Shown here piece after piece: positions 40,178 to 62,185 of a DNA stretch of 64,000 bases; within the stretch, counting starts at the first letter, position 1, and every line of letters starts with the position of its first letter. The notes below the pieces were generated by a model that did no database searches, was not told where the DNA came from, and saw only the letters and a program-made list of their open reading frames with translations. The position numbers and the translations under genes were made by a program. Origin of the DNA: an uncultured delta proteobacterium (GTDB lineage Bacteria > Desulfobacterota > RBG-13-43-22); assembly GCA_963711835.1 (NCBI GenBank), contig CAVQFQ010000013.1:21629-85628 (forward strand), read 5' to 3'.

Positions 40178-40191
40178 GAAAGGACCGAGAA

Positions 40192-40353: not shown

Positions 40354-40468
40354 AAAACCCGATAACGGATGCCGGAGACCCGAGGCCCGATTAATACAAA
40401 CCCTTTTGAGATCAATTGTTATTTGGATTAAATCAGGTATTCGGCATCGGGCATCACAGGAGGTGCAA

Positions 40469-41041: not shown

Positions 41042-41052
41042 GAGGTAGTCCC

Positions 41053-41658
41053 ATGAAAAAAAATCGAACCAAGACCTTGTTTATTATCCTGCTGGTCTCG
41101 GGTCTGGCCTGCCCCTCCTGGGCGCAAACCCTTTCCGAGGCCTACAAAGGCAATATTTATAATGTCGGGCACCTAAAGCCCATTGACAGCCGACTAAAAG
41201 TCAAGGTGGGAGATCCGGCCCCGGATTTCAGCCTTCCGGCCGTTTCAGGGGGGAAAATTACCTTGAGTCAGTACCGGGGAAAGAAAAATGTGGTCCTCTC
41301 TTTTGTACCGGCGGCCTGGACCCCGGTCTGTTCCGATCAATGGCCCGGCTATAATATCGTTCAGGGTCTTTTTGAACAAAAAGAGGCCATCCTGCTGGGC
41401 ATCACCGTAGATAACATTCCTACCCTCTTTGCCTGGACCAACCAGATGGGCAAACTCTGGTTTCCGGTCCTTTCGGATTTCTGGCCCCACGGGGCCGTAG
41501 CCGATCGTTATGGGATCTTGCGCACCGACGGGACTTCCGAGAGGGCCGTTTTTCTGATCGATAAAAAGGGGCTGATCCGCTATATCAACGTCAACGACAT
41601 CAACAAACGTCCCCGCCTCGAAGACCTGGCGGCCGAATTGGAAAAGCTGGATAAATAG
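41053..41658 (+). CDS. Exported peroxiredoxin (AhpE-like)
   Basis: FVPAAWTPVCS, LSDFWPHG and SERA motifs. Confidence 0.88.
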   Translation: MKKNRTKTLFIILLVSGLACPSWAQTLSEAYKGNIYNVGHLKPIDSRLKVKVGDPAPDFSLPAVSGGKITLSQYRGKKNVVLSFVPAAWTPVCSDQWPGYNIVQGLFEQKEAILLGITVDNIPTLFAWTNQMGKLWFPVLSDFWPHGAVADRYGILRTDGTSERAVFLIDKKGLIRYINVNDINKRPRLEDLAAELEKLDK

Positions 41659-41671
41659 TCAAAGCCGGATT

Positions 41672-42394
41672 ATGAATTTTATCAGCGCCATCAGGACCTT
41701 GCTGGCCCGGGAAGATTACCAGGCCCTGGCCTTGATGGCCCGGGAGCACGGGGGAAGGACAGCCGCCGGGTTGATCGGCCTGGTCACGGATCTGGATGAG
41801 ACCATCAAGTGGCGAGCCGTTTCGGCCTTAGGCCGGACCGTGGCCGGTTTATATTCCCAGGACCCGGAACGGGCCAGAAAGGTTCTCAGGCAACTTCTCT
41901 GGAATCTTAACGAAGAATCAGGAGGCATCGGTTGGGGTATGCCGGAGGCCTTCGGAGAAATTATTGCCCTTACGCCTCCCCTGAGAAGGGAATACGGTTA
42001 TTTGCTGGTGGCTTATCTCTCCGAAAAATGCTGCTTCCTTGAAAACGACCAATTGCTCCTGGGGGTGGTTTGGGCCTTGGGCCGCATCGGGGATCTGGAA
42101 CCGGATTTAAAACAACAAGCCCTTCCCTTCCTTTTGGAGGCCCTTAACCATACCAACCCAACCATGCAGGGCACGGCCGCCTGGACCCTGGGACAGCTTA
42201 AGGCCGGGGAGGCCTTTCCCTTTCTAAAAGCCTTGCGCACCGGACCGGGGATGATTAAAATATTTGAACAAGGCTTATTAAAAGAAAAACCCATTCAAGA
42301 ATGGATAACGGAAGCTATCGAAAAAATAGGACCAGGAGGTGAGAGTGATGAACGAGAACGACTGGAAATGCAGCAAATGCGGCTACACCCTTAA
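41672..42394 (+). CDS. HEAT-repeat protein (DVU0298-like)
   Basis: [22 protein letters not shown] motif. Confidence 0.78.
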
Positions 42395-42509
42395 GGCCCA
42401 GGCCCCCCCGGAAAAATGCCCTTCCTGCAATGAGAAATGCGAGTTCGTGAATGTAACCTGCTATATCCCGGAATGCGGATTTAGCGGATCCGATGAGCGC
42501 CTGAAATAA
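42348..42509 (+). CDS. Small rubredoxin-like protein (not in ORF track)
   Basis: RBS GGAGGT; [53 protein letters not shown]. Confidence 0.85.
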
Positions 42510-42531
42510 AAAAAGAAGGGAGGAAACGCGG

Positions 42532-42720
42532 ATGTCCAAAAAAAAATATACGGTCCGGGCGGAATGCCCGGCCTGCGCTTGTGGTGATGTTAGTTTTTTA
42601 GGACCGGAAAAACTCCGGGAAAAATTCATCGGCGACGAAAAGGAGATTGAGATCCTTTGTCCCATGTGCGGAACCAAGCACAGAGGTCAGGTAGTAGCTG
42701 AAGAGGAAGCCCCGGAATGA
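42532..42720 (+). CDS. Small Cys-rich protein
   Basis: CPACACG and CPMC; RBS GGGAGG. Confidence 0.75.
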   Translation: MSKKKYTVRAECPACACGDVSFLGPEKLREKFIGDEKEIEILCPMCGTKHRGQVVAEEEAPE

Positions 42721-43304
42721 TGGTCTTGGGCATTTACGGCAGTCCCAGGAAGGCGGGCAACAGCGATCTCCTCCTGGACAAGGTCTTGAACGGAGCTCAA
42801 TCCGCCGGGGCGCGGATCGAAAAGGTTTATATCCGTGACCTGGAGGTTTCCGGCTGCCGGGAATGCGGCGGCTGTGATGAAACAGGGAAGTGCGTTATTC
42901 TGGATGCGATGGAAAAAGTGTATCCCCTGCTCTGGGAGGCCGATATTGTTTTTTTATCCTCTCCTATCTTCTTTTATGGAATACCCGCACAGGCCAAGGC
43001 TCTGGTGGACCGCTCTCAAGCCATGTGGTCTAAAAGGATGTTGGAGAAAACCCCGGAGCAGAGAAAAAGATACGACCATGGCCGGGGCTATCTCATCGCC
43101 CTGGGAGCCACCAAAGGGAAATCGCTCTTCGACGGGGTTCAGCTGACGGCCAAGTATTTTTTTGACGCGCTTGACAAGAGCTATGAGGGAGGTATTTTTA
43201 TAAGGGGGGTGGAGGGAAAAGGAAAAATTGCCGAGGATCCTTCCGCCCTTAAAGAGGCCTTTGACTTGGGAGTAAAGGCTGTTAAGGAAAGCAGCACTAA
43301 TTAA
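42717..43304 (+). CDS. Iron-sulfur flavoprotein / flavodoxin-family protein
   Basis: GSPRK.GNS, CRECGGC....C and SPIFF motifs. Confidence 0.9.
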   Translation: MMVLGIYGSPRKAGNSDLLLDKVLNGAQSAGARIEKVYIRDLEVSGCRECGGCDETGKCVILDAMEKVYPLLWEADIVFLSSPIFFYGIPAQAKALVDRSQAMWSKRMLEKTPEQRKRYDHGRGYLIALGATKGKSLFDGVQLTAKYFFDALDKSYEGGIFIRGVEGKGKIAEDPSALKEAFDLGVKAVKESSTN

Positions 43305-43375
43305 CCTTAAAATAATCACCCCCGTTTTTCCCTTTCCAACTTCTAAGGGGAAGGTGGGGGAATAGGGAGGCATTA

Positions 43376-43576
43376 ATGACCACACCCCAACATTGTCCCG
43401 GTTATCAGCAATTCAAAAATCTCAAATCGTTTAGCTGCAAATGCCCCAACTGCGGCAGAGAAACTGAAATTTTTTCGGATGAATTCAACAAAAAACACAC
43501 CTGCAAGGGCTGCCAGCAGGAAATCGATTTTACCCAGTGCACACTGGAGGCCAGTGCGGGAAGTATCACCCCTTAA
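43376..43576 (+). CDS. Small zinc-ribbon protein
   Basis: HCPG, CKCPNC, EIFSDE and CKGC; RBS GGGAGG. Confidence 0.75.
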   Translation: MTTPQHCPGYQQFKNLKSFSCKCPNCGRETEIFSDEFNKKHTCKGCQQEIDFTQCTLEASAGSITP

Positions 43577-43740
43577 TCAGGGCCTAATATAGCCCCTTTC
43601 ATATGTCCGTTCTCTAAATAAAAACGGCCTTCCTTAAGCCGCTGGGGCTGTTTTCTCCGGAGTCCCGGTCCCCCGGCGGGCTGATTTTTAGCGGGCGAGA
43701 ATGGGGAGGGGCGAAGGGGTAAGCCATCAGGACCAGGACC

Positions 43741-45802
43741 ATGTCCAACCATCTGATTAACGAGAAAAGCCCTTATCTACTCCAACACGCCGAAAATCCC
43801 GTGGACTGGTATCCCTGGGCGGAGGAGGCCTTTCAAAAGGCCCGGCAGGAAGACAAGCCCATTTTTCTCTCCATCGGTTATGCTACCTGCCACTGGTGCC
43901 ATGTCATGGCCCATGAATCCTTTGAGAACCAGGAGGTGGCCGAACTCCTCAACCAGGCCTATGTGGCCATCAAAGTGGATCGCGAGGAACGGCCCGATAT
44001 CGACCAGGTCTATATGACCGTCTGCCAGGCCCTGACCGGCCGGGGAGGCTGGCCCCTCTCGATTTTTATGACACCGGAGGGCCAACCTTTTTTCGCCGGC
44101 ACCTATTTCCCCCGGACCAGCCGCCTGGGGATGTCGGGTTTTAGCGAACTTTTGAAACAGATTGCCGCCCTCTGGGAAAAGGACCGGTCCCGGGTGCTGC
44201 AAGCCGGGCAGGAAGTCACCCGGTCGATTCAATCCCGGGTGGAAGCGGCGGGCAGCGCTGCCCTCCCGGGCTTGGATACCCTGGAAGCGGGATACGGGCA
44301 GTTACTGAAGTCTTTCGACACCCGCTTGGGTGGATTCGGTCAGGCCCCCAAATTCCCAACCCCGCACCATCTCCTTTTCCTGATCCGCTGGGACCGGCGA
44401 CATCCTGAATCCCGGGCCCGGGAGATGGTTGAAAAAACCTTGCAAGCCATGCGCACCGGCGGGCTCTTTGACCAGGTGGGACTGGGATTTCACCGCTATT
44501 CCACGGATGAGAAATGGCTGGTCCCTCATTTCGAGAAGATGCTCTACGACCAGGCCCTGCTGGCCATGGCCTATACTGGAGGCCTTTCAGTCCTGGCAGG
44601 CTCCCTTTCAGGCCCAGGTTGCCCGGGAGATCTTTACCTATGTGCTCCGGGACATGACCGCACCCGAAGGCGGTTTCTATTCGGCGGAAGATGCCGACAG
44701 TGAAGGGCAGGAAGGGTTGTTCTATGTCTGGACCCTGGAGGAAATCAAAAAAATCCTGGGAGAAGAAACCGGGGGCCTTTTCTGCCGCTGTTATGACATT
44801 CAGGAAGGGGGCAACTTTGAGGGGAAAAGCATCCCCAACCTTCCGCTTTCCTTAACCGAATGCGCCCGTCGAGAGCGAATGGAACAGGCCGATCTGGAGA
44901 GGCGATTGGAACAGGCCCGCCGGACCCTATTTGAATTCCGGGAAGGCCGTGTCCATCCCCTGAAGGATGACAAGATCCTGACCGCCTGGAACGGGCTGAT
45001 GATCGCCGCCCTGGCCAAGGGAGCCCAGGCCCTGAACGAGCCGGCCCTGGCCGAAGCAGCCGCCCGGTCGGCCCGATTTATTTTGGAACACATGCGGGAC
45101 CCCGAAGGGAGGCTTTACCGGCGCTACCGGGACGGCCATCTGGCCCAATCCGGATTTCTGGACGATTACGCTTTCCTGATCTGGGGATTGTTGGACCTCT
45201 ACGAAGCCGCCTTTGATCTTTCTTTCCTGGAGGAGGCCATTAAACTCAACCGGATCATGCTCGATCTCTTCTGGGACGATAAAGAAGGGGGCTGCTTCTT
45301 TACCCCCAAAGACGGCGAGGTCCTGATTGCCAGGGAAAAAGACATCTCAGACGGGGCTGTCCCTTCCGGAAATTCGGTCGTCTTCCTGAATCTGTTGCGC
45401 CTGGCCCGAATCACCGGAAACCCCCATTTGGAAGAAAAGGCCGGTCAAATGCCGGGCTGTTTTTCTTCCCATGTGGCCCCTCTTCCCATGGCCTATACCC
45501 AGTTCCTGTGCGCCCTGGACTTCGCCCTGGGTCCGGCTCAAGAGATCGTGGTGGCCGGGGATCTTCAGGAAGCCGCCACCCAAGAGATCATTCGAATCAT
45601 CCGGCAGGTCTTTCTGCCGAACAAAGTCCTGTTGCTGAAAACAGACGGTCCGGAAAGCCAACCTCTCTCCGCCATCGCCCCCTTTGTTGAAAGCATGCAG
45701 GCCGAAACGGGCCGGCCCAGGGTTTTTCTCTGCCGTCAATACGCCTGCCGGCAGCCGATTACCGATGTGGAAGAACTGAAGAAAACACTTGCCCTGCCCT
45801 GA
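43741..45802 (+). pseudogene. YyaL/SSP411-like thioredoxin-domain protein with a +1 frameshift near 44575
   Basis: [17 protein letters not shown] and [11 protein letters not shown] in one frame continue as [24 protein letters not shown] in another. Confidence 0.88.
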
Positions 45803-45812
45803 GGATTTTGGT

Positions 45813-46611
45813 GATGCCCGCAATGAATACCTTCGAATTCTGGAGGCTGGTCATTTTTTGGGGGGCTCTGTTCCTTTTCCTGATCCTGGAACTGCTCCTC
45901 CCCTACCGCCTCCCTTCGGTGTCCAAGTTCAAACGCTGGACTACCAACCTGGCCCTGACCCTCTTTAACAGCCTGGCCCTGCAGGTTCTGTTTACCGCCT
46001 CCATCCTGGGCATGGTCGCTTACGTCACCCGGAATAAATTGGGGATTCTTTACCTGTTGCAATGGCCTTATTGGGCCCGGGTTCCGGCCACCATCGTTTT
46101 CATGGATTTCATGCTCTACATCTGGCACCTCCTGAACCATGAAGTCCCCTTTTTCTGGCGCTTCCATCGCGTCCATCACAGCGACCTGAACATCGATGTC
46201 TCCACGGCCACCCGCTTTCATCTGGGAGAACTGGCCCAGTCAGCCATTATTCGGATCGGATTGATTTATCTCCTGGGAGCCGAACTCCTGGGAATTTTTC
46301 TCTATGATTCCCTGGTTGTCCTGGCGGCCCAGTTCCATCACAGCAGCCTCAGGGTCCCAGTCGGGTTTGAGAGGCTGTTCTGGATCTTTTTTGTGCCGCC
46401 TTCCATGCACCGCATCCACCATTCCGTGGTCATCAAGGAACGCAATGCCAATTACGGAACCATTTTCTCCCTCTGGGACCGTTTTCTCGGGACGCTGGTC
46501 CGGGATTGTGATCAGGAAAATATTCGGATCGGTATGGGGGCCTATTCAAAGATCGAGAAATTGAAACTCCTTCCCCTCCTGGTCATGCCCTTTACCCGTC
46601 CAGTTCGATAA
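45813..46611 (+). CDS. Sterol desaturase / fatty-acid hydroxylase family protein (start uncertain)
   Basis: His boxes HLLNH, HRVHH, FHH and HRIHH; WDRFLGT. Confidence 0.88.
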
Positions 46612-46776: not shown

Positions 46777-48402
46777 ATGAAGGAGGAGAAAAAAGAACCG
46801 ATGCAACGGGTCAATAAACTATTCTACATTGGGCTGGTTATAATGGTTATAGTTGGAGGCTACGCGTTTGAAGTAAAAGCTCAAGGCTTGGGATATATCC
46901 AAGGCACCGTTAGAGATACCGGAACCGGAGATCCAATTCCCGGGATTTACGTGGACGCTTTTGAGGTAAATTTTGGATACGTTTCTACTGGGTCAGTCAA
47001 TACCACAGATTCCAATGGGCAATATTCCTTAATGGTTTTTACTGATGGCATATATAAGGTTTTCTTCAGAGGACTCAGTAACAACTATGTAGGTCAATGG
47101 TGGAACAGCGCCTCTTCTTTTTCGGGAGCGAACCCCGTTACTGGTGCCGGTGGGAATACGGTTACCGATTTTGTGGGGGGGACCCCCGTTACTGTTATCA
47201 GCGGGAATACGGTTACCGATATTAACGCCACGATGACAACAACCGGGGGAGGGCAAATATCAGGGCGAGTGACCGGGCCAAATGACGCCGGAGTTCCATT
47301 CGTTTCCGTCTCTGTTTATGACTATGGTCAAAAAATTGATGGGAAGCGCGGGATTGCTAGCGCAAGTCCGGATAGTAATGGAGACTATATCATCTCTAAT
47401 CTTCCCCCTGGTACTTACAAATTATTATTTCGGGATGCCAGCAGCGTGAGTAATAATCTGAACGAGTGGTGGGATAACCATACCGGTTTTTCAACGGCTG
47501 ACCCGGTACCGGTCACCGCCGGAACCGCTACCAGCGCCAATTGCATGCTATCCGAAGGTGGGATTATCAGCGGGACCGTAAGAGACGAATCCAATAATCC
47601 GATTAATGGGGCTATCATTTCAGCCTACGACCAGAATCAAAAACAAGTTTCTTCGGCTGCAACGGATGCCGGCGGAATCTATTCTTTGAAGCGTTTGCCT
47701 TCCGGAAACTACAAGCTACTTTTCAAAGGACCCTCGGGGTCCAACCTGGCCTACCAATGGTATGGCAATCAGTCCACTTTTAACCAGGCCGATTGGGTTC
47801 CAGTGACTGCCGGCATTACCCAAGCCGATATGAACGCCCAACTTATCCCGGGTGGAACCATTACCGGCACAACCACCCCCGGATCAACCAGTGTTATAGT
47901 GTTCGATGAATACCAAAATATCGTAGCCAACGCGTTTTCAGCTACGGATGGTGCATTTTCGGTGGCGGGGATTCCTTCGGGAAGGTACAAGATTTCGTTT
48001 TCCAAATATAATTACGGAAGAACCTGGTTTAATGACCGCCGGACTTTTGAAAGCGCCGACTGGATCTGGGTAAATGCCCCAAATTCCACACCTGGTGTAA
48101 ATTGCCAATTGATCTCTTCAGCGATTATCTCCGGAAAGATAACCGATGCTACGGGAACCGGGATACCCCGGGTAAAGGTCCAGGTCTATGACGACGCCAC
48201 CTTAGAAGCATTATATGGCTCTGCCACTACAAATAGCCTGGGCAATTATTCGCTGAGCTCTGTTCCCCCTGGAAGCGGCAGGCTTTTTTTTGATTCTCGG
48301 GGGACTGGATACTTTCCGGAATGGTGGGATGATAAAAAAACAATAAGTGATGCGACACCCATCAATCTCATTTCCGGTGAAACCTATCCAGGAAGATCTT
48401 TG
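46777..48402 (+). CDS. Secreted carboxypeptidase-regulatory-like repeat protein, truncated and in frame with the downstream rhodanese gene
   Basis: Signal peptide; repeated ISG.V....G.YKL.F..W.....A..V.V modules; no stop before 48403. Confidence 0.7.
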
Positions 48403-49251
48403 ATGCGCTGGAAACAACTTTTTACACCGACCGCTTCCCTGGAACCCGATGAGGCCAAATCCTTTATCGCCGCACATGCGGAGGGCTCCTATACCCTGTT
48501 GGACGTCCGGCAACCCGGTGAATACGAAAAAGAACACCTGCCCGGGGCCATTCTGATCCCGCTTCCGGATTTGGCGGACGCCTTCTCCCGGCTGGATCCC
48601 TCGAAGCCCATCATAATCTACTGAGCCGTGGGAGGCCGGAGCCGCGTGGCGGCTCAATTCCTTTCCGGACAAGGCTTCCAGGAAGTCTATAACCTCAAAG
48701 GCGGCATCCAGGCCTGGCAGGGTCTGAAAGCCAAGGGACCGGTTGAATTGAATCTGGATCTGATCCGGGGTGATGAAAGTCAGGAAGAGATGGTTGTCAT
48801 TGCTTACGGATTGGAGAAAACCCTAAAGGAATTCTACCAGGATTCAGCCCGGGAAGAGCTGGAAGAGGCCCTGCTGAACCTCTTCCGAACCTTGGCCGCT
48901 GCCGAGGGAAAACATCAGCGCCTGTTAATGGACCTGTTACCAGGGTTGGCAAGCCGGTCCGAGGCTGAGCCAAAGGAAGAAAGACCCGCCTCCCTTATGG
49001 AAGGGGGGTTCAGGAGCGAGGAGTTCCGCAGGGAAAACCGGTCCTTTCTTTCGACCCCTTCCGGGGTCCTGGATCTGGCGATGATGATTGAAACTCAGGC
49101 CCTCGATCTCTATCTGCGCTTCGCTCAAAAAAGTGACGCAGAAGCTGTCAGGGCCGTTCTTTACCGGTTAGCTGATGAAGAAAAGGCCCACTTAAAGACC
49201 TTGGGCCACTACCGGGATCAATGGCAGAAAACTGCCCCAGAGACCCCATAG
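48403..49251 (+). CDS. Selenocysteine rhodanese-ferritin-like fusion protein (Sec at 48622)
   Basis: DVRQ..EY...HLPGA..IIIY-UGA-AVGGRS puts the UGA at the rhodanese catalytic Cys position. Hairpin GAGCCGC-GTG-GCGGCTC at 48639-48655. C-terminal E..H helical pairs. Confidence 0.88.
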
Positions 49252-49261
49252 GAGAGAAACG

Positions 49262-49487
49262 ATGACTTCTTTCGAATACCAAATCACTGTCCATCCAGCC
49301 GAATCCTTTCTCCAACTGGTCTATTTTTGCTCGGAGCAGGGAGAATGCACATGTGGACCAGGTCCCCCGGGACCAGATCGGCCTATTAACCGACCTGTTG
49401 AACCGTAAAGGTCGGGAAGGCTGGGAACTGGTCCAGATCTCCTTCGGCCGGGACGGCCTCATGGCCTTCTGGAAAAAACCGGTCTAA
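49262..49487 (+). pseudogene. DUF4177-like small protein with a +1 frameshift
   Basis: MTSFEYQITVHPAESFLQLVYFCSEQGECT, then shifted DQVPRDQ..LNRKGREGWELVQISFG..FWKKPV*. Span is 226 nt. Confidence 0.65.
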
Positions 49488-49532
49488 CAACAGTCCCCAA
49501 AAAAATTATTTCCACCCATCCAATCAAAACTT

Positions 49533-49885
49533 AGGGATAGTCCCAAAGTTACGTGATTCTCAAACCGAAGGGCTTCAGGGGTCTTGATTCCAAGGATTGT
49601 CCGCCAAAACGCCGGCAGCCTGCCCCCGGGCAGGAAGTTTATAATGGTGTTTAGAAACAGGCCAACACCAAAGTCCCGCGTTCCGCGGGATGAATGCCCG
49701 GCTCCTAACCAACCGAGAAATTCGGGCCGGGTTCTTCGCATCCAAAGCAATGCTCAGTCCCACTCCTGCGGAGTGGATCCCAGTTTGGGGCTATGGATAC
49801 CCTTTCGGACAACCTTGAAATCAAGACCCCTGAAGCCCTCGAAGAATGGATGGCTTAAAAATCACGTAATTTTGGGACGAACTCA
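49533..49885. mobile_element. MITE-like repeat, copy D (353 bp)
   Basis: Perfect 6-bp duplication AAACTT; terminal and internal IRs present. Confidence 0.9.
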
Positions 49886-49992
49886 AAACTTGACTTTTTT
49901 TAATAAATGTATTAATAAGTGTTTATATATTGATATTGTTAAATCACCCCTTTATCAAATCAAGTTTTGTAAAAAGTCTGACTCATAACCTG

Positions 49993-50319
49993 ATGAAAAA
50001 CAAAGGATCTCCCTTGGGAACAGAACGTCTGGACAGCCTGGCCTTTCTATTGAAATGCCTTTCCGATGAAAACCGCCTGCGCATCCTTTTCTGCCTCAAC
50101 CAGGGGAAAAAATCGGTTTCCCGTATCGTCGAGGAACTGGATCTCTCTCAACCCCTGGTTTCCCATCACCTGAAGGAATTGAAAAGGGCCCTTCTGGTCC
50201 AGGTGGAGCGGAACGGCCCTTTTATTTATTATGAGATTACCAATCCGGAAGTGATCGGACTCCTTAGGTCTCTGGAAAAACTGGCCACCGGGTTGATAAC
50301 AGCCAGAACAACTTTTTAA
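49993..50319 (+). CDS. ArsR/SmtB-family transcriptional regulator
   Basis: LSDENRLRIL, SQPLVSHHLKEL and ERNG..IYY motifs. Confidence 0.92.
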   Translation: MKNKGSPLGTERLDSLAFLLKCLSDENRLRILFCLNQGKKSVSRIVEELDLSQPLVSHHLKELKRALLVQVERNGPFIYYEITNPEVIGLLRSLEKLATGLITARTTF

Positions 50320-50338
50320 CCCTATAAGAGCGGAACCC

Positions 50339-50788
50339 ATGACAACCATTCAAGAAATCTTCCAAACCCTGGAGCCCCTGGAGGCCCTGGAGGCAATCGC
50401 TCCCCTGCTAAAGGAAGTCTTCGGACAAGTGGGGGAAGAGGTTCGCCTGCAATTTTTAATGGGCCTGGTGGATGAGAGCAATTCCGACAAGGTAGCCAGT
50501 CTGGTCCATCTCTGACTGGCCGAATGCATGGACGAAGGTGTCGATCCAACCCATATGTGCCAGAGCCTGGTGGAGAAAGTGGCCCATTCCAAACAACTGA
50601 AAGCCGTAGCCGACCCCGAGATCCTGGTTTTGTTCGAAGACTGGTTGGAGGAGCTGGAGGACGAGGTCATCGAGCAGGTTCGGAAAACCGGTACCCAGGA
50701 TCCTACCGTTTTGGCCCCGGCTCTGGGATTATCTCATTCGGGAATAACCTTTTTAATTACCAAGCTTAAACGGGAAGGAAGAATATAA
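50339..50788 (+). CDS. Selenoprotein with L-U-L-A-E-C motif (TsoA-like; Sec at 50513)
   Basis: The ATG at 50339 is in frame with the 50528 ORF across a single UGA. Hairpin TGGACGA-AGGTG-TCG(A)TCCA starts 13 nt downstream. C-terminal wHTH-like segment. Confidence 0.78.
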
Positions 50789-50822
50789 AAAAAGCAGCCG
50801 GTTGGTAAAAAGGGAATTAACC

Positions 50823-52556
50823 ATGAATAACAAAAAGATTACCATCATAGCCTTGGTACTGGTGGCTCTGGTAATAGGCGCTCTCTGGTTTACCAACCGG
50901 GCCGTGACCCCGAAAGAAGCCACCTGGGAGGATGTGCTTGGAGAAGCCAGGCTGGGCGGGTACGCGATTATCCGGACCGACGCCTTATGGGATCGCTATC
51001 AAAAAGAGCCCGGGGGGATCCTTTTAATCGATACCCGCCAGGAATGGGAATTTCGCACCGGCCATCTCAAGGGGGCTCTGAATTTTCCCATGGAGCCTAC
51101 GGCCTGGTCCAGGTGGCGAAAGCAGAAGCCCCTGGAAACCTTCCTGGGAAGGGATAAGACCCGTTTCATTGTCTTTTACTGAGCCGGTTTGACCTGAGTC
51201 CGCAGCGACTCAGCAGCCCGGGTGGCTGTGCAACTGGGATATTCGAATGTTTTTCGGGATCCTTACGGATACCCTGAATGGCAGGCAAAAGGGCTCCCCA
51301 TCGAAAGCCAGCCCGCGGGCCTTAGCGAAGGAACCTCCCCTCCCAAAACCCCCGGTCCCCTATACGGCTGGGCCATGGTCTGGACCTTATTGGGCATCTT
51401 CGCCGGAGGCATAGCCCTCAACCTGACGCCCTGCGTTTATCCCCTCATCCCCATTACCGTCTCCTATTTCGGCGGCCGGAGCGGACAGGGACAAGGGCGG
51501 CTCCTTCTGCATGGGTCTTTGTATATCGTGGGCTTGTCTATAACAAATTCCATCCTGGGAGTCGTAGCGGCCTTAACCGGCGGTCTTATGGGGGCCATGC
51601 TCCAGAACCCGGTGGTCCTGATCGTCGTGGCCGTCATTCTGGTCTTTTTCGCCACCAGCCTTTTGGGCTTCTGGGAACTGCGTCTGCCTGAGGGCCTGAA
51701 CCGGATGGCTTCGAAGTCTTATACCGGTTATTTCGGGACCCTGTTCATGGGCTTGACCCTTGGTGTGGTCGCCGCCCCCTGTATCGGTCCTTTTGTCTTA
51801 GGATTGCTGACCTGGGTGGCCGGTATGGGCTCTCCCTGGCTGGGATTTATCATCTTTTTCACCCTCAGTCTGGGCTTGGGACTGCCCCTTTTTCTCTTGG
51901 CCATTTTTTCAGGTAGGATCGAGAAACTTCCTCGTTCCGGAGAGTGGATGCTCTGGGTCCGCAAGCTCATGGGCTGGGTCCTGGTGGGCATGGCCGCTTA
52001 TTTTATCAGGCCTCTCTTACCTGAGACCGGGGGGATAATCCTGCTGGCCGGGGTAGCTTTCGTGGCCGGTTTGCATCTGGGATGGTTGGACAAGACCAAG
52101 GCGACCTTCAAGGCCTTTACCTGGTTCAAGGCCGTAGCGGGGCTGGCCGGCATGGTCATAGCCACTTTCTTGATCGGGTCTTGGGTCCTGCGCGGCCCTG
52201 GAGTGTCCTGGCAGACCTATTCAGATAAGCTTCTCATGGAGGCCCGGCAAGCCCAAAAACCGGTCATTATCGATTTTTATGCCACCTGGTGCACCCCCTG
52301 CCGGGAATTGGAAGGGATCACCTTTCATGATCCTGCGCTAGTGAAAGAAGCCGCCAAGAAATTCATGATGATCAAGGTGGACCTGACCCAGGGGGGAAAC
52401 CCTCTCTATGAGCGTTTGTTAAAACAGTATGAAGTTAAGGGAGTCCCCACTATCGTATTTTTAAGCCCGCAGGGGGAGGAACAGCGCCGACTCCGGCTGG
52501 TGGATTATCTACCCCCGGACCGGTTTTTAAAACATATGGCCGAGGCCGGAAAATAA
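50823..52556 (+). CDS. Rhodanese-DsbD fusion selenoprotein with two Sec (TsoB-like; UGA at 51180 and 51195)
   Basis: DTRQ.WEF..GHLKGA..IVFY-U-AGLT-U-VRS..LGYSNV..GYPEW continues in frame into DsbD (LTPCVYP, AAPCIGP, WCTPC). Two hairpins follow the UGAs. Confidence 0.88.
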
Positions 52557-52579
52557 TTTTCCTGATAAAGGAGAAAAAC

Positions 52580-52897
52580 ATGGTAAAAGTCCGCTGCTTT
52601 ATGAATGAACCTAATGGCAAGCCTTGAAAGCACTTTCAGGCCATGATGCCCAGGTTGGGCCAAAAATATGAACTTGAGACCGAGGTTATTTCCAAACCAA
52701 GGGCCGAATACCAGACCGACGAATACTTTGAACTGGATCTGCCGACGGCTCCGGCGGTGATGGTGGACGATGAAATCGTTGTCGAAGGATCCGATGTGGC
52801 CGAGGATAAGCTTGAGAATGTCATCCGGAAACACCTCGGGCTTCCGGAACTGGTACCTGAAAAGAAAGGGGTCTTGGGACGGCTTTTTGGCCGTTAG
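52580..52897 (+). CDS. Thioredoxin-like selenoprotein with NEPxGxxU motif (TsoC-like; Sec at 52625)
   Basis: RBS AAGGAG; MVKVRCFMNEPNGKP-U-KHFQAMMP is in frame with the 52643 ORF; APAVMVDD cis-Pro region; hairpin GCCCA-GGT-TGGGC. Confidence 0.82.
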
Positions 52898-53071
52898 ATC
52901 TAAGAATGCTTGTTCCTGAGAAGGACCTTCCATCTGATCGGACTTTCTGATAAAGATGGATTCATGAGGCAATCCTTCAAACCTCATTTCGCCCTTTAGC
53001 GGAAATTGAAGAGCTGAACCAATAAAAAGGGAATGTGGCCAAGGCCTTTTTTGGGCCTTAAGGGCAAACCG

Positions 53072-53767
53072 ATGAAAGAAGGAAAGGAAACGTCCGGCAA
53101 ACGATCCAGGGGCGCGGTCATCAAGGCGGCTGTTTTTGTCCTTTTCATCCTGGCCGCTGTTTATGTGGTTCGTTATACCCCCGTCAAGGAATTCCTGACG
53201 GTGGGAAAAATGAAACAGTTTTTGGATACCTCGGGCATTTGGGCACCGGTGATTTTTATTCTCATCTACACCCTGGCCATCTGTCTTTTTGTACCCGGTA
53301 CTCTAATAACCGCCGTAGGGGCGGCCATATTTGGGGCCTATTGGGGATTCGTCTATGTTTTGGCCGGGGCCATCCTGGGGGCCACAGTCACCTTTTTCAT
53401 CGGCCGATATTTGGGCAGAGATTTTGCCGCTTCCGTTATCGGGGATAGACTCAAAAAATATGACGAGGCCATCGAACGAAATGGTTTTGCCACCGTTCTC
53501 TATTTACGGCTGATTTACTTTCCCTTTACAGCCATGGATTTTGGTATGGGCCTGACCCGGGTCCGTTTTTGGGATTATTTTTGGGGTACCTTACTGGGTA
53601 TCCTCGTCGGCACCTTTGTCTTTACTTTTTTTGTTGGAACCATAAAAGAGGTTTGGGCCAGTGGGGATTGGGGGCAACTCCTGTCGGGAAAGGTTTTTCT
53701 TTCGGTGGCCTTGTTTGTTTTTTCCTTATTCATTCCAAAAATTATCAAGAAATTTAAAAAAGAATAA
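53072..53767 (+). CDS. TVP38/TMEM64 (DedA/VTT) membrane protein
   Basis: PGT....G..FG...G, F.IGRY.G and LRL..FPF...G.T motifs. Confidence 0.88.
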   Translation: MKEGKETSGKRSRGAVIKAAVFVLFILAAVYVVRYTPVKEFLTVGKMKQFLDTSGIWAPVIFILIYTLAICLFVPGTLITAVGAAIFGAYWGFVYVLAGAILGATVTFFIGRYLGRDFAASVIGDRLKKYDEAIERNGFATVLYLRLIYFPFTAMDFGMGLTRVRFWDYFWGTLLGILVGTFVFTFFVGTIKEVWASGDWGQLLSGKVFLSVALFVFSLFIPKIIKKFKKE

Positions 53768-53778
53768 AGGAGGTACTT

Positions 53779-54108
53779 ATGCCTGCGTTCGAGTATGAAG
53801 GAATAAAGATCACGGTTGATGAGGAAGGATACCTGGTAAATTTCGATGACTGGACCGAAAAAGTGGCCTGTGCTTTAGCTGAAAGAGAAGGGGTCGGAAA
53901 AACCTGTCCGATGAACAAGGAGCAGTTGGAAATATTACAATTTATTCGTGACTATTATAAAAGGTTCAATTCGGTTCCCATAGTCCGGGCCGTTTGCACC
54001 AATGTCCATCAGCCCAAGGCCTGTGAATATATCCAGTTTCCGGATCCTATCACCACCTGTAAGATTGCCGGGATACCCAAACTGGACACCGGCTATGACC
54101 TGATGTAA
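53779..54108 (+). CDS. TusE/DsrC-family protein lacking the C-terminal Cys
   Basis: VDEEGYL.N..DW...VA..LA and CKIAGIPK motifs; ends DTGYDLM. Confidence 0.85.
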   Translation: MPAFEYEGIKITVDEEGYLVNFDDWTEKVACALAEREGVGKTCPMNKEQLEILQFIRDYYKRFNSVPIVRAVCTNVHQPKACEYIQFPDPITTCKIAGIPKLDTGYDLM

Positions 54109-56444: not shown

Positions 56445-56767
56445 AGTTTGTCCCAAGGTTACGTGATTCTCAAACCGAAGGGATAGTCTTAAAAAAATAT
56501 TAAATCACCCCAAAGGGCTTCAGGGGTCTTGATTTCAAGGATTGTCCGCCAAAACGCCGGCAGCCTGAATCCGGGCAGGAAGTTTATAGGGGGGTTTAGA
56601 AACAGGCCAACACCAAAGTCCCGCGTTCCGCGGGATGAATGCCCGGCTCCCAACCAAGTTAGAAATTCGGGCCGGGTTGGGGCTATGGATACCCTTTCGG
56701 ACAATCCTTGAAATCAAGACCCCTGAAACCCTCGACGAATGGATGGCTTAACTTTGGGACTATCTCA
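56443..56767. mobile_element. MITE-like repeat, copy E (325 bp)
   Basis: Perfect 6-bp duplication AAAATT; sits between two convergent stop codons. Confidence 0.9.
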
Positions 56768-56771
56768 AAAA

Positions 56772-57224
56772 TTAAATTCTGCCGGGATCAAGGAGTTTGA
56801 ATCCCAGGTCCGGCTCCAGCTTGCGCAAGGCGGAAGTATCCAGGAGTTCAAAGAGGATCACCTCGATTACCTGCCAGGTCTTAACACCTGTTCGGACACA
56901 GCCGGTTACCGTAGCCTCCTCCCGGCCGGCGGCGACGTGCATATGCAGGATGGGAATTCCGGCCTCGTCCGGGAAGAGAGTTCCCGCGCCCACGATTTCA
57001 TGGACATCGGCCAGCTCATGAACCATGGGTATTATGGGTCTGGCGCGCCCGTCTCGGGGACCCACCACCAAACGGCTGCCGCTATCCGCCCCGCCTAAAA
57101 CAATCAAGGTCGCCGCCCGGATTTTCTTTGCTTCGGCAAACGCTTCAATCGTCTCATGCAGAATTTCCCCGTCTTCCAACCGGATTATAAAGACCCTGCC
57201 CTGCCTGGCTTCCGAAAATTTCAT
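56772..57224 (-). CDS. PPC-domain (DUF296) protein
   Basis: RLEDGE, LHMH and EVIL.E motifs. Confidence 0.85.
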   Translation of the reverse strand: MKFSEARQGRVFIIRLEDGEILHETIEAFAEAKKIRAATLIVLGGADSGSRLVVGPRDGRARPIIPMVHELADVHEIVGAGTLFPDEAGIPILHMHVAAGREEATVTGCVRTGVKTWQVIEVILFELLDTSALRKLEPDLGFKLLDPGRI

Positions 57225-57655
57225 GACAATTCTTGAACCTGAATAAACGCGCCATAAAGGCTTAAGAACTTTTTGATATCGTGCAATCTTTCTTGGATGA
57301 TTCTAAAAATCTCCGAATCATCTAAGTCCCAGTAAATATGGACCAGCCGGTTTCTAAACCTTGCCATTTGAGTGAGTTCGAGAGCAAAGGTCTCATCTAT
57401 AGCTCCAATTTCTTCCATGACCTTAAAGGTATCTGCATAATCCTCGGGAGTACGGAAGCCGTTTTTTGCAATGAGATGGTGACATAAATCAACAACCCCT
57501 TCGATAGCAACGATCAGGTTATACTTGGCACTGCCAACTTTGTGGGGGTCGGCGCAAAAATTGGGTTCCGGAAGTTCCTTCAATTCCTCGAGGCGATGCA
57601 GGGCATTCCTAATTTCGGAAGTAAGTTTTCTTACTTTGTCAAGATCGTATTGCAT
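57221..57655 (-). CDS. HepT-like HEPN toxin (DUF86)
   Basis: FRNRLVHIY (Rx4HxY) motif. Confidence 0.88.
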   Translation of the reverse strand: MQYDLDKVRKLTSEIRNALHRLEELKELPEPNFCADPHKVGSAKYNLIVAIEGVVDLCHHLIAKNGFRTPEDYADTFKVMEEIGAIDETFALELTQMARFRNRLVHIYWDLDDSEIFRIIQERLHDIKKFLSLYGAFIQVQELS

Positions 57656-58073
57656 GGGCCAAGGCCTCTTTTAGATACCTGTGATGGAATGGGGCAAAAT
57701 CGAGATAGTCATTTATTGTTTTTTCAATGAAATTGCTTTTTACCTCATCCTTCTTTGAAAACAACAACTCCCCCTGCTTTATCACGGCATACCTAAAGGC
57801 AAGCGGGGCTTGATTAAGAAGGCGAATTTCTGAGGGAATATTTTTCACCAATCGGGTCATCTGCGCCTCGATTTCAAGTTCATACCTCAGGGATGAGACG
57901 GAAATGGGTTCGAGGAAGAGCGCTATATCGATGTCCCTAAATCTACGATCGGTAAGGAAAGACCCATGAATAAAGGCAAATAGAATCTCCGGCCTCTTCT
58001 GAAGATTGGCGGCTATCTGGTGTTTAATGGCTTCTCTTTCCTGTTTTGGTATTTGATAAGTATGGTTTTCCAT
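57639..58073 (-). CDS. MntA-like minimal nucleotidyltransferase antitoxin
   Basis: HGSF......DIDIA motif; overlaps the HEPN gene. Confidence 0.88.
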   Translation of the reverse strand: MENHTYQIPKQEREAIKHQIAANLQKRPEILFAFIHGSFLTDRRFRDIDIALFLEPISVSSLRYELEIEAQMTRLVKNIPSEIRLLNQAPLAFRYAVIKQGELLFSKKDEVKSNFIEKTINDYLDFAPFHHRYLKEALAHAIRS

Positions 58074-58191
58074 GGGCACCATAGTACTAAAACCTTTCGC
58101 AAATATCAAGCCGGGACCCATTTTTTAAGCTTGACAGGCTTTAGGGGTAAAGGGAAGATAATGAAGCCAATTTTCCGAAGAAGGGACTTTC

Positions 58192-60108
58192 ATGAAACAA
58201 ATTATCCTCGGCACCGCCGGACATATTGATCACGGCAAAACCAGTCTGGTTAAGGCCTTGACCGGGATCGATACCGACCGTCTCAAAGAGGAAAAAGAAC
58301 GGGGCATCACCATCGAATTGGGTTTCGCCTATCTGGATCTGCCCAGCGGCCAGCGTTTGGGCATCATTGATGTGCCGGGACACGAGCGGTTTATTAAGAA
58401 TATGGTCGCCGGGGCCAGCACCATTGACCTGGTGGCCCTGATCATTGCCGCCGATGAAGGGATTATGCCCCAGACCCGCGAGCATCTGGATATCTGCACG
58501 CTGTTGGGGATTAAGAAGGGCCTGGTGGCCTTGACCAAAATCGATATGGTCGAAGAGGACTGGTTGGATCTGGTCCAGGAAGATATTAAGGAGTTCCTAA
58601 AAGGCACGTTTCTGGAAGGAGTCCCCCTGGTACCGGTTTCTTCGACCACCGGTCAGGGGATACCGGAACTGATCGGCATACTGGAGAAATTAGCCGCCGA
58701 GATCGAGGAGCGCTCTTCAGCAGGGATTTTCAGGCTTCCCGTGGATCGGGTGTTTACCATGCGGGGTTTTGGAACGGTTATCACCGGGACGGCTATTTCA
58801 GGCAGCCTTTCCGTGGGCGATCAGGTCACCATCTATCCCCAGGAGATTCAGGCCAAGGTCCGCGGCATCCAGGTCCATAATCAGGATACGGAGCAGGTCC
58901 GGGCCGGCTTGCGGACGGCCGTCAATTTTCAGGGCATTGAGAAAGCGACCGTCAATAGAGGCGATATCGTCTCCAGCCCTCTGGGATTATTTCCTTCCTC
59001 CTTTTTGGACATCCGCATCACTATGCTCAAGTCCGCTGAAAGGCCCCTGAAAAATCGGGCCCAGGTCCGTTTCCACAGCGGCACCAGCGAGATCATGGGC
59101 CGGGTGGTTCTGCTGGAAGGGGAAGAAATTAAGCCCGGCGAATCCCAGTTCTGCCAGCTTCGACTGACCGAGTTGGTGGCCCTCTTGCCCGGGGATCTGG
59201 CTGTTATCCGAAGTTATTCCCCGGTCCGGACTATCGGCGGAGCCCAGGTCTTGAATGTGATTCCGGGAAAGCATAAGCGCCTGCAAGCCGAGGTGGCCAG
59301 CCAGCTCCGGGTCCTGGAATCGGGTTCGGACTCCGAAAAGACCGCCCTCCAGGTATTGCTGGCCGGGGCCATGGGGATGTCCCGGCAGAAGCTGGGCCGG
59401 GTCCTGGCCGTTCCCCCTAAAAAGCTGGATGAAATATTGAAAGACCTCCTTTCCCATCGGGTGTTGATTCAGTGGGATAAGGAAAATCGTTTTATGGTTC
59501 ATCAGGAGGAATTTTCCAAACTCCTGAAGGCCATTGAAGAATTGTTGAGGGAATACCATAAGACCAATCCTTTGAAACCCGGATTGCAGAAGGAGGAACT
59601 GAAATCCCGCCTGCCCCAGATCAAAGAAGCCAAGCTGTTTAATTTCATCCTCAACCACCTCTCCGACCAAGGGATCCTGGTCCAGGAAAAGGAGCTGGTC
59701 CGGCTTAAAAGCCACACGGTGCAACTGAAGGAAGACCAGCAGGCCGCCCGGGATGCCATTGAAAATATCTATCTCAAAAGCGGCCTGGAGCCTCCCTACT
59801 TTAAAGATTTGGTGGAAAAGTACCCTAAGGGGAATCCCAAGGAAGTCCTTGATTTGATGGTCAAGGAAGGCAAGCTGATCAAGGTCAAGGAGGACCTATA
59901 TTTCCACAGTCAGGCCATCGAAGGATTAAAGAAAAAACTGGTCCAGTGGCTGAGAGAGAAAAAAGAAATCACCACCCCGGAATTCAAGGAAATGACCCGG
60001 ACCTCCCGCAAATACACTATTCCCTTGCTGGAATATTTCGACGCCATCCAAATGACCATGCGGGTCGAGGACAAACGCCTGCTCAGAGAAAGCAAGGAAA
60101 CCGCCTAA
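58192..60108 (+). CDS. selB: Selenocysteine-specific elongation factor
   Basis: [30 protein letters not shown], and C-terminal winged helix [13 protein letters not shown]. Confidence 0.96.
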
Positions 60109-60755: not shown

Positions 60756-62104
60756 TTAATCATAATTAAATGTTACTGAAAGGATAGCAGAAGAGGGATC
60801 GTTTACTCATAATTAATGTTACCGGAGCGAGGGGACTTAAGCTGTTCATTCCGGAACTGGGTCTGGAAGATTTTTTTAAGTTTAGTTTCAATAGCTGCTC
60901 TCAGATGGAAAGGGTTCAAGGTTTTCAATTGGGCGATTAATTGCTTTTTAATAGCCGGCGGTACCAGCGGGGATTCCATAATCCGTTGGTAAGGCGTTTT
61001 AGGGCGATCATACCTCCGGATGGTTTTGAGGCAATTCTTTCTTTGGCCAGCAGTTTTACTGAGGGCAGGAAGAAGTTATGAAACAGACGCCATTCCTGGG
61101 TATAGAGGTTGTTCAGGAGAGGGACGACCTGGGGGTTGTCCAGGCGATCATAGCCTAACCACTGGCGGACATGGGTCCAATTTTTTTGTTCTATATGGGC
61201 ATTGTCGTCTTTATGATAGGCGCGGCTACGGGTAAATTGGATGGGCTTTTTTCTTTCGGTGAAGTGTCTCAGGAGATGATGGTTTAAAAATTCGGAGCCA
61301 TTATCGCAATCGAAGCCGAGCAAGGGGAAGGGCAAGGACTGTTCGATCTTACGGATTTGATCCAGGACCCCGGTTTCGCCTTTTCCCCAGACCGCCCGTT
61401 GTTCGGTCCATCCTGTAGCGATATCGACGCAGGTCAGTCCAAGGTATAGGTGAACATTCCGGCTACGGTGTCTCCACAATGGGCCACGGTATCAGCTTCC
61501 AAAAACCCCGGCCGGGTTTCATCCCACTGGTTGGTTTTTAGGGGAATTTGTTTTCGCAAGAGGGTGCCGGGTTTGGTGGTGGCGCGCCCTCGTTTTTTAT
61601 ACTGGACGCGGATGAATTTCAAGCGCCGATCGATGGTGGCGGTCGAGATCGTATCCAAGGCCCGTCGGACCGGGACCGGCAGTTCCCCGAAGGTTGAGCC
61701 GTAGCTGGGAAGCCATAAAGGTAACGAGGCCTTAAGCCGGGTGGAGCAGGGCTGATTGGCAGCCAGCCAGATCTTTTTTAAAGCTTTTAAGAGTTCAGGA
61801 GAGTCATAGACAGGCTTCCGGCCTCTCGGTTTAGGTTGAGGCTTGGTAAAACGTTTAAAGCCTCTGAGCAAGCGATTAGCGTGTTTTCGATGGTACTTGG
61901 TAGCGGCACAGAATTCATCCAAAATAATTTGCTTTTGGGCTTTGGTGGCATCTTTATACCGTTTAGAAATAGCCTCCAGGTATTCATTTTTCGATCGGGG
62001 ACTCATAATTTTTACCTCCTACCGAGATCTTTCCCTCGGTAACATTAATTATGAGTCAACGATCCCTTTGTTTTAACCCCCTTGGTAACATTTAATATGA
62101 TTCA
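60756..62104 (-). mobile_element. ISNCY/IS481-like insertion sequence with doubled terminal repeats
   Basis: IR GGTAACATTAATTATGAGT(C/A)AACGATCCCT plus a second outer GTAACATTTAA(T)TATGATT copy at each end. Confidence 0.72.
60803..62006 (-). pseudogene. DDE/rve transposase with two frameshifts
   Basis: MSPRSKNEYLEAI..PGFLEADTVAHCG, then DCDNGSEF..SRAYHKDDNAHIEQKN in another frame; breaks near 61437 and 61020. Confidence 0.85.
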
Positions 62105-62124
62105 ATTCGCCCTATTTTTTAAAC

Positions 62125-62153
62125 TTGACAGGCCATGGTCATTCGTGTACGTT
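62125..62153 (+). promoter_or_regulatory. Sigma70-type promoter
   Basis: TTGACA-17 nt-TACGTT upstream of the ATG at 62186. Confidence 0.5.
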
Positions 62154-62185
62154 TGTATTAAATTGAATACATTCCCTTGCTGCCC

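What the first reader, a model, noticed from the sequence alone, without database searches (positions are those of the whole stretch)
48403..54108. Hidden selenoprotein cluster: five Sec codons in four genes, with ArsR, DedA and TusE partners, near selB
Seen: in-frame UGAs at 48622, 50513, 51180, 51195 and 52625 each split one coherent protein and are followed 11-20 nt later by a short hairpin with a G-containing loop (GTG, AGGTG, CGCAGC, CGGGT, GGT). selB lies at 58192. Knowledge: bacterial SECIS hairpins lie immediately 3' of the UGA. From memory, the three central genes match the NCBIfam names TsoA/TsoB/TsoC; this is unverified and I know of no characterised function. Inference: an ArsR-controlled system coupling transmembrane electron transfer (DsbD) to sulfur/selenium or metal(loid) handling by Sec-rhodaneses and a TusE-like carrier.
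Basis: partly seen in the sequence, partly recalled or inferred. Interest (0 to 1): 0.88.

Follow-up and report, generated by a model that had tools for sequence, protein, structure and literature searches.

The report
Known Tso selenoprotein operon, Sec-sensor candidate
Five apparent stop codons here behave as selenocysteine codons, and the core is a copy of an operon named in 2025 whose function is untested; it likely clears reactive sulfur, and one of its selenoproteins, which ends in a helix-turn-helix, may be the sensor that switches it on.

Summary
All five UGAs are in frame, and each is followed by a hairpin that fits the bacterial SECIS geometry. They are TGA in 47/47, 47/47, 87/87, 71/72 and 10/10 homologs. 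The genome has selA, selB, selC and selD.

The core is the known tso operon: TsoR, TsoA, TsoB and TsoC pass NCBIfam cut-offs. This scan has met it in at least 22 other genomes.

Corrections:
- The Sec-rhodanese/ferritin gene lies upstream of the tso operator and ends a different cluster.
- The 'TusE' lacks the carrier cysteine.
- Closeness to selB looks incidental.

Added here:
- A conserved palindromic operator over the tsoR promoter (75 of 79 loci).
- TsoR has no conserved Cys.
- TsoA ends in a helix-turn-helix, pairs with TsoR in 34 of 36 genomes, and has Met-rich non-Sec homologs.

Best model, inferred: a TsoC-to-TsoB-to-periplasmic-diselenol-rhodanese reducing chain against sulfane sulfur, likely switched on through TsoA. 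The founding paper was not readable.

The parts
46777..48402 (+). Secreted-type Ig/CarboxypepD-repeat ORF that has lost its own stop and runs in frame into the rhodanese gene; not part of tso
   Evidence: the G007 homolog ends about 15 codons further on with its own stop; a close relative's contig joins 46598 to 48390
48403..49251 (+). Sec-rhodanese (YUAVGGRS, U74 at 48622) fused to a rubrerythrin/ferritin-like domain with two ExxH motifs; own AGGA ribosome site at 48390; tail of the upstream cluster
48639..48655 (+). SECIS-like hairpin for U74 (7 bp, GUG loop)
   Evidence: all 7 pairs kept in 9 of 9 homologs
49262..49487 (+). Small DUF4177/Sp36-like gene, frameshifted in this assembly
   Evidence: (both hits below cut-off)
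49526..49888 (.). Palindromic dispersed repeat (MITE/REP-like), 78 places in the genome, inserted just before the tsoR promoter
   Evidence: absent in a relative's contig that joins 49509 to 49885
49890..49931 (+). Predicted tsoR promoter: -35-like TTGACT (49890-49895) and palindromic operator (49906-49931; consensus AacATATAAA-n6-TTTATATgtT)
   Evidence: the generic promoter scan did not flag it
49993..50319 (+). tsoR, ArsR/SmtB-family repressor without conserved Cys; start codon uncertain
   Evidence: (NF045707 153.6 > 115)
50339..50788 (+). tsoA, LULAxC selenoprotein (U59 at 50513, C63, C74), all-alpha, with a C-terminal helix-turn-helix
   Evidence: (NF045695 218.8 > 170)
50529..50548 (+). 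SECIS-like hairpin of tsoA (AGGUG loop)
50823..52556 (+). tsoB: N-terminal hydrophobic anchor, rhodanese with U120-x4-U125, DsbD membrane domain (C204, C320), thioredoxin domain (C490-x2-C493)
   Evidence: (NF045694 1013 > 805)
51195..51229 (+). Two adjacent SECIS-like hairpins; the first (51195-51212) carries the second UGA in its 5' strand, the second is 51213-51229
52580..52897 (+). tsoC, thioredoxin-fold GxxU selenoprotein (U16 at 52625; hairpin 52648-52660), no signal peptide, basic-hydrophobic C-terminal tail
   Evidence: (NF045708 152 > 45)
53072..53767 (+). DedA/VTT-domain membrane protein, accessory
   Evidence: same strand near tsoA in 14 of 79 loci
53779..54108 (+). DsrC-fold protein lacking the C-terminal carrier Cys, with four near-invariant internal Cys; accessory
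   Evidence: in 5 of 79 loci
58192..60108 (+). selB, needed for recoding but not linked to tso in relatives

Best explanation
This is a complete tso operon (tsoR-tsoA-tsoB-tsoC, then dedA and a DsrC-fold gene) that likely forms an inducible reducing chain: thioredoxin-fold TsoC would feed electrons to TsoB's membrane cysteines, these would pass them to a predicted periplasmic two-selenocysteine rhodanese that likely strips sulfane sulfur (polysulfide or its selenium analogues), and TsoR likely represses the operon until TsoA, the inferred sensor, reacts. Shown: family membership, invariant UGAs, conserved hairpins, Sec machinery, domain order, conserved operator, HTH in TsoA, gene linkage. Inferred: topology, direction of electron flow, substrate, TsoR binding to the palindrome, and TsoA's sensor role. 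The Sec-rhodanese/ferritin gene is a real selenoprotein gene of the neighbouring cluster.
For: Identity. Chain: TsoB keeps C204 and C320 in 47 of 47 and CxxC in 45 of 47 (2 gaps), with the rhodanese where DsbD has its N-terminal acceptor domain (DsbD layout recalled). TsoC folds as a thioredoxin (pLDDT 91.6; Foldseek probability 1.0 to thioredoxins, best E 1.5e-3). Substrate: SQR-like, TauE or DsrE-family genes lie on the same strand near tsoA in 24 of 79 loci, against ArsM-like, ArsC or ChrA in 11 of 79 (my union of the lists; labels). SQR, sulfurtransferases and TauE are the usual targets of persulfide sensors (PMC13467558, passages). Operator-like sites also precede SQR-like/MMPL/LolA cassettes in L024 and L092. 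The host has dsrA. Regulation: palindrome in 47 of 71 upstream regions against 2.6 in shuffles, and in 75 of 79 loci by profile. TsoR has no conserved Cys. In the same 401 genomes Sec-TsoA is in 36 and TsoR in 36, with 34 shared, while two-UGA TsoB is in 24 of the 36 TsoA genomes. One TsoA-less tsoB sits behind an ArsR-rhodanese fusion that carries its own Cys (L171).
Against: No biochemical or expression data exist in my calls. The SQR label is a hit far below cut-off (92 against 525), and none of SQR, TauE or DsrE is in this window. tsoB follows an Acr3-like transporter gene in L170 and L173 (the Acr3 name is recalled). G324 has an operator and an intact TsoR with no tsoA, and G249 has TsoR without tsoA. 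Exposed positions of TsoA's recognition helix vary while TsoR's are invariant, and typical TsoA lacks a wing, so sequence-specific DNA binding by TsoA is doubtful. HTH fold matches are middling (Z 7.7 at best, none at 8 or above), and the TsoA model has pTM 0.40. My hydropathy scan found 1 + 7 segments, so the periplasmic position rests on DsbD homology. TsoC occurs in many loci without tsoB, so it is not a dedicated donor. No Cys-for-Sec homolog was seen at TsoA U59 or TsoC U16.
Confidence: 0.45

Rival explanations
1. A soft-metal or metalloid (As, Hg, Cu, Cr) response: TsoA's U59/C63/C74 would bind the ion, and TsoB and TsoC would keep binding or reducing enzymes reduced.
For: ArsM-like methyltransferase near tsoA in 7 of 79 loci, ChrA in 3, ArsC in 1. 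tsoB behind an Acr3-like gene in L170 and L173. Non-Sec TsoA homologs are 14% Met (that Met-rich segments bind Cu(I)/Ag(I) is recalled). TsoR's closest solved relatives include CzrA and SmtB.
Against: Sulfur-type neighbours outnumber metal-type ones 24 to 11 of 79. No metal exporter was among families found in 4 or more loci except ChrA and RND/ABC parts. HlyU and other ArsR proteins score as closely as CzrA.
Confidence: 0.25
2. A selenium-trafficking module: the operon would capture and relay selenium towards selenophosphate synthesis or export excess, with read-through of the tsoA UGA acting as a selenium gauge.
For: Every Sec site is fixed as UGA. TsoA's UGA is the first in the transcript. 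An earlier AI note reports SelD inside one such operon (e1-6658467, unchecked). The host needs selenium.
Against: selD, selA and selB were not among the families I found in 4 or more of the 79 loci. An uptake system built of selenoproteins would fail when selenium is scarce (inference). Non-Sec homologs of TsoA sit behind ArsR genes too.
Confidence: 0.15
3. General envelope oxidative-stress repair: TsoB would act like any DsbD/ScsB-type transporter that reduces oxidised periplasmic cysteines or peroxiredoxins, with selenium only speeding it up.
For: DsbD architecture. In this family the region adjoins peroxiredoxin, flavodoxin and rhodanese-ferritin genes. HCP and TrxR genes appear in 6 and 5 of 79 loci.
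Against: Those genes are mostly on the other strand or outside the operator's reach (1 and 2 on the same strand). It does not explain the SQR-like, TauE and DsrE cargo.
Confidence: 0.12
4. The UGAs are true stops or the genes are pseudogenes.
For: This assembly has frameshifts nearby (YyaL, DUF4177). About a third of ordinary TGA stops pass my hairpin scan.
Against: UGA and never TAA or TAG across homologs, compensatory hairpin changes, complete Sec machinery, and family models that span the codons.
Confidence: 0.02

Closest known systems
Tso 'three selenoprotein operon': TsoR NF045707, TsoA NF045695, TsoB NF045694, TsoC NF045708 (Haft & Tolstoy 2025, mSystems 10:e0141724; seen only as cited in PMC13188914)
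   Same: All four genes pass their cut-offs, in this order, with the listed motifs (LULAxC, UxxxxU, GxxU).
   Different: No TsoX or GcvH-related gene was recognised among the window's ORFs. Ends with dedA and a Cys-rich DsrC-fold gene. A repeat element abuts the promoter.
Persulfide-sensor regulons SqrR/BigR/CstR (PMC13467558, passages)
   Same: ArsR-type repressor; relatives carry SQR-like, TauE, DsrE and rhodanese genes.
   Different: TsoR lacks the conserved Cys pair; no persulfide dioxygenase was among common neighbours; DsbD-rhodanese and Sec chemistry are not described for them in the passages I read.
DsbD/ScsB transmembrane electron transporters (layout recalled)
   Same: Membrane domain with two Cys followed by a CxxC thioredoxin domain.
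   Different: N-terminal Ig-like acceptor replaced by a two-Sec rhodanese; scores below the DsbD cut-off (246 against 330).
DsrC/TusE/RspA family (PMC8477390, PMC9371685, passages)
   Same: DsrC fold, TIGR03342 65.7 > 53.5; CysB position kept in 88 of 120.
   Different: No CysA, so RspA-like rather than a TusE carrier; four extra near-invariant Cys.
Sec rhodanese-like proteins with UxxG motif (table in PMC13188914)
   Same: Active-site U in a PF00581 domain, UAVG.
   Different: Fused to a ferritin-like domain; no NCBIfam model for the fusion passes cut-off; 'rubrerythrin' and 'ferritin' do not occur in that review.

Membership tests
Tso operon | TsoA, TsoB, TsoC above curated cut-offs | tested here: met
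   218.8/170, 1013.2/805, 152/45
Tso operon | TsoR regulator directly upstream; adjacent genes on one strand | tested here: met
   153.6/115; gaps of 19, 34 and 23 nt
Tso operon | Co-transcription | not testable with these tools
   only contigs of related organisms were available
Bacterial selenoprotein | In-frame UGA conserved as UGA or Cys in homologs | tested here: met
   TGC/TGC in distant rhodaneses in L071 and L075; no Cys form seen for TsoA or TsoC
Bacterial selenoprotein | bSECIS hairpin 16-37 nt downstream with G in the loop | tested here: met
   5 of 5 and 250 of 254 homolog sites, background 32-39%; looser energy cut-off than the published model
Bacterial selenoprotein | selA, selB, selC, selD in the genome | tested here: met
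Bacterial selenoprotein | Selenium in the protein | not testable with these tools
   needs MS or 75Se
TusE / DsrC sulfur carrier | C-terminal CysA (CysB-X10-CysA for DsrC) | tested here: not met
   ends TGYDLM; 0 of 120 homologs have Cys in the last 4 residues
SqrR/BigR-type persulfide sensor (TsoR) | Conserved Cys pair in the repressor | tested here: not met
   the only Cys column has C in 27 of 78; BigR model 48.5 against 155
HTH transcription regulator (TsoA) | Tri-helical HTH module | tested here: met
   HTH_24 in 38 of 72 members at E <= 0.05; rmsd 1.1-2.2 over 47-52 residues in most top rows, Z 7.0-7.7
HTH transcription regulator (TsoA) | Conserved DNA-reading face and DNA binding | tested here: inconclusive
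   exposed positions vary; binding untested
Canonical DsbD | Full-length model with the N-terminal Ig-like domain | tested here: not met
   match starts at residue 185; 246 against 330
Thioredoxin fold (TsoC) | Trx fold with redox residue at the start of helix 1 | tested here: met
   GxxU in place of CxxC

The most novel reading that the evidence does not exclude
TsoA is a selenocysteine-based transcriptional sensor: it reacts through U59/C63/C74 and controls the Cys-less repressor TsoR on a conserved palindrome. TsoR-TsoA would be a portable two-protein switch whose Met-rich ancestors sensed without selenium, placed in front of changing sulfur and metalloid cargo.
Probability: 0.3. Interest if true: 0.78.

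Novelty: new member of a known kind. Interest (0 to 1): 0.42.

Why it matters
The operon is catalogued and its function is open, so another copy is ordinary. The value lies in making it testable: a defined operator for reporter and gel-shift assays, a clear division between the TsoR-TsoA module and its cargo, and a topology-based electron path. If TsoA proves to be a sensor it would be a selenoprotein acting in gene regulation. The review's text has no mention of 'helix-turn-helix' or 'DNA-binding', and one literature search showed no such case in its three listings, but the founding paper and its supplements were not readable and may already note the HTH or the operator.

Tried and rejected
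- Haft & Tolstoy 2025 was not held; searches for it found only the review.
- Foldseek on the TsoA and TsoC models gave no match at E <= 0.001. The N-terminal 90 residues of TsoA remain untested for fold.
- A PDB sequence search with TsoA gave only protein-A repeat noise and weak HTH hits.
- Rfam found nothing in 38000-64000.
- The generic promoter/terminator scan was at chance level and missed the tsoR promoter.
- A second enriched 'upstream motif' was TsoR coding sequence.
- The only other operator-like site in the genome (C9:9421, 20.8 bits, before what looks like a vapBC pair) is below all training scores and is probably chance.
- 'SelB' hits in 4 loci cover only residues 10-118 at 34% identity, a shared GTPase domain.
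- A true Ig-rhodanese fusion protein family was rejected: the Ig gene was found in 1 of 20 family genomes and has its own stop there.
- Sequencing runs held at most 0.21 of the words; only contigs of relatives were laid, so there is no expression evidence and no check of this strain's junction.
- The Met-rich alignment was too diverged for a locus scan, so its context rests on 4 genomes.
Full report
Observation. The five TGA codons are at the stated places. With TGA read as Sec they give a 282-aa rhodanese/ferritin-like protein, TsoA (149 aa), TsoB (577 aa, two U) and TsoC (105 aa). A scan of genome contigs confirmed 216 TsoA-like stretches and returned 79 loci, titled mostly as Desulfobacterota/Deltaproteobacteria. 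Using these plus 14 regions from G-handle genomes, the codon is TGA in 87 of 87 TsoA, 71 of 72 TsoC and 10 of 10 rhodanese-ferritin genes, and at both sites in 47 of 47 TsoB. All five window sites pass my scan for the bSECIS geometry described in PMC13188914 (section 5 read whole), though with a looser energy cut-off. So do 32% of 629 long-ORF TGA stops, so the hairpins count through their conservation: 250 of 254 homolog sites pass, with two-sided changes in tsoA and in the second tsoB hairpin. The first tsoB hairpin carries the second UGA in its stem. selA, selD, tRNA-Sec and selB are present.

Identity. TsoR, TsoA, TsoB and TsoC all exceed their NCBIfam cut-offs. PMC13188914 (abstract, sections 5 and 9, table passages) lists the three selenoproteins and the 'three selenoprotein operon', citing Haft & Tolstoy 2025, which was not held. 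The scan's index has 34 findings with these words in at least 22 genomes (AI notes). In 401 genomes of the phylum, 41 have a TsoA-like match, 36 of them with one TGA.

Boundaries. A palindrome, AacATATAAA-n6-TTTATATgtT, lies just behind a TTGACA-like hexamer in 47 of 71 regions upstream of tsoR, against a mean of 2.6 in 100 shuffles. A profile of it scores above 18 bits in 75 of 79 loci; of the four misses, two are cut by contig ends. The window's site is 49906-49931 (28.3 bits), the best of two in the genome. The Sec-rhodanese/ferritin gene lies upstream of it and beyond a palindromic repeat that occurs at 78 places in the genome. That gene is near tsoA in 2 of 79 loci. It was found in 13 of 20 family genomes, and in all 10 family loci examined it follows a fatty-acid-hydroxylase-like gene, which where the contig reaches closes a multiheme-cytochrome/peroxiredoxin/HEAT/flavodoxin/YyaL cluster. 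It is therefore a real selenoprotein gene of a neighbouring unit. The upstream Ig-repeat ORF runs into it without a stop. The G007 homolog has its own stop and is followed by a 647-aa gene, and a close relative's contig joins 46598 to 48390, so the read-through is a local deletion or assembly error and the AGGA at 48390 belongs to the rhodanese gene. No full-length selB lies in the 79 loci.

The 'TusE'. It passes the TusE/DsrC/DsvC model but ends in TGYDLM. None of the 120 best homologs (of 194 found) has Cys in the last four residues; C31, C43, C73 and C82 are kept in 119-120 of 120 and C94 in 88. DsrC-like proteins lacking CysA are called regulatory sulfur-related proteins in PMC9371685 (passages). 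The canonical DsrC, ending GACKMAGLPKPTGCV, is on C21 near dsrA.

The redox chain (inferred). TsoB has a hydrophobic segment at 6-24, a rhodanese with U120-x4-U125, a DsbD membrane domain with invariant C204 and C320, and a CxxC thioredoxin domain. By homology with DsbD (recalled) the rhodanese and thioredoxin domains would both face the periplasm; my hydropathy scan found seven further segments, so this is not shown. TsoC is modelled as a thioredoxin fold (pLDDT 91.6, pTM 0.80; best Foldseek rows are thioredoxins at E about 2e-3), has no signal peptide, and 44 of 72 copies match my pattern for a basic-hydrophobic tail. It is a plausible cytoplasmic donor, but it also occurs without tsoB.

Substrate (inferred from neighbours). 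Same-strand neighbours of tsoA in 79 loci: TsoC 60, TsoB 48, GcvH-related 15, DedA 14, SQR-like 12, TsoX 11, hydroxylase-like 11, ArsM-like 7, two DsrE types 7 and 6, MMPL 7, TauE 1 and 4, DsrC-fold 5, ChrA 3, ArsC 1 (many loci are cut by contig ends, 49 have 8 kb downstream). SQR-like, TauE or DsrE occur in 24 loci, metal(loid) genes in 11. SQR, sulfurtransferases and TauE are the usual targets of persulfide sensors (PMC13467558, passages). Against this: the SQR label is far below cut-off, none of these genes is in this window, and tsoB follows an Acr3-like gene in two loci.

Regulation (inferred). tsoR precedes tsoA in 79 of 79 loci. TsoR has an invariant recognition helix but no conserved Cys. 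In the same 401 genomes TsoR (E <= 1e-25) is in 36; 34 are shared with the 36 Sec-TsoA genomes, and the two remaining TsoA genomes have a more distant ArsR next to it. Two-UGA TsoB is in 24 of the 36, counting one frameshifted copy. TsoA is predicted all-helical (pLDDT 77.9, pTM 0.40). Its last 45-50 residues match HTH modules by Pfam (38 of 72 members) and by structure (Z 7.0-7.7, a middling score). A profile search found 457 representatives at E <= 0.001, among them Met-rich proteins without Sec that align over 151 columns (probability 99.8) and keep the C74 position in 25 of 29. Three of four TsoA-like genes of this distant type in the phylum sample lie downstream of an ArsR gene. One TsoA-less tsoB lies behind an ArsR-rhodanese fusion. 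This suggests TsoA supplies the reactive residues that TsoR lacks. Against it: two genomes have TsoR without tsoA, one with an intact operator, and TsoA's recognition helix is variable, so it may act through protein contact or not in regulation at all. A word search of the scan's notes for this idea returned nothing.

Verdict. A real, correctly read cluster whose core is a new member of a known, functionally untested operon. Identity is near certain; the sulfane-sulfur mechanism is about 0.45 and the Sec-sensor reading about 0.3. Interest 0.42.

Noticed in passing
window 49526-49888; also about 56450-56780; 78 places on 20 contigs: Palindromic repeat of about 360 bp with nested inverted arms (27 nt, 96% complementary), 48 copies of 200 nt or more; no Rfam match; absent at this site in a relative.
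   Followed up: partly
window 46777-48624: Ig-repeat gene without its own stop, in frame with the rhodanese gene; relatives show a separate stop or lack the Ig gene.
   Followed up: partly
window 38588-46611 and 48403-49251: Family-conserved cluster: multiheme cytochrome, two peroxiredoxin-like genes, HEAT protein, small Cys proteins, flavodoxin, YyaL-like, hydroxylase-like, Sec-rhodanese/ferritin.
   Followed up: partly
window 43741-45802 and 49262-49487: Frameshifts in the YyaL-like and DUF4177-like genes; continuous in relatives, so assembly error or recent decay.
   Followed up: partly
window 53779-54108; P0165-P0284: DsrC-fold subfamily of at least 194 clusters with four near-invariant internal Cys and no C-terminal Cys; possible metal or Fe-S site.
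   Followed up: partly
P0011-P0133; L140:7862-8236; L141 about 7750-8079: Large unnamed family of Met-rich wHTH proteins homologous to TsoA; the L141 member has an in-frame UGA (U-x3-C) and precedes an ArsM-like gene.
   Followed up: partly
L024:3526, L092:1504, L070:13141, L021:6503: Extra operator-like sites, two in front of SQR-like/MMPL/LolA-like/DUF1302 cassettes, suggesting a wider TsoR regulon.
   Followed up: partly
window 57221-58121 (-): MNT-HEPN-type gene pair (Polbeta nucleotidyltransferase and HepT-like RNase) between the operon and selB.
   Followed up: no
window 60937-63860 (-): Two insertion-sequence-like ORF sets downstream of selB, one apparently frameshifted (judged from translations only).
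   Followed up: no
G070 (L149, L150), L029, L144: Several tsoR-tsoA copies per genome, most with their own operator-like site and different cargo.
   Followed up: no
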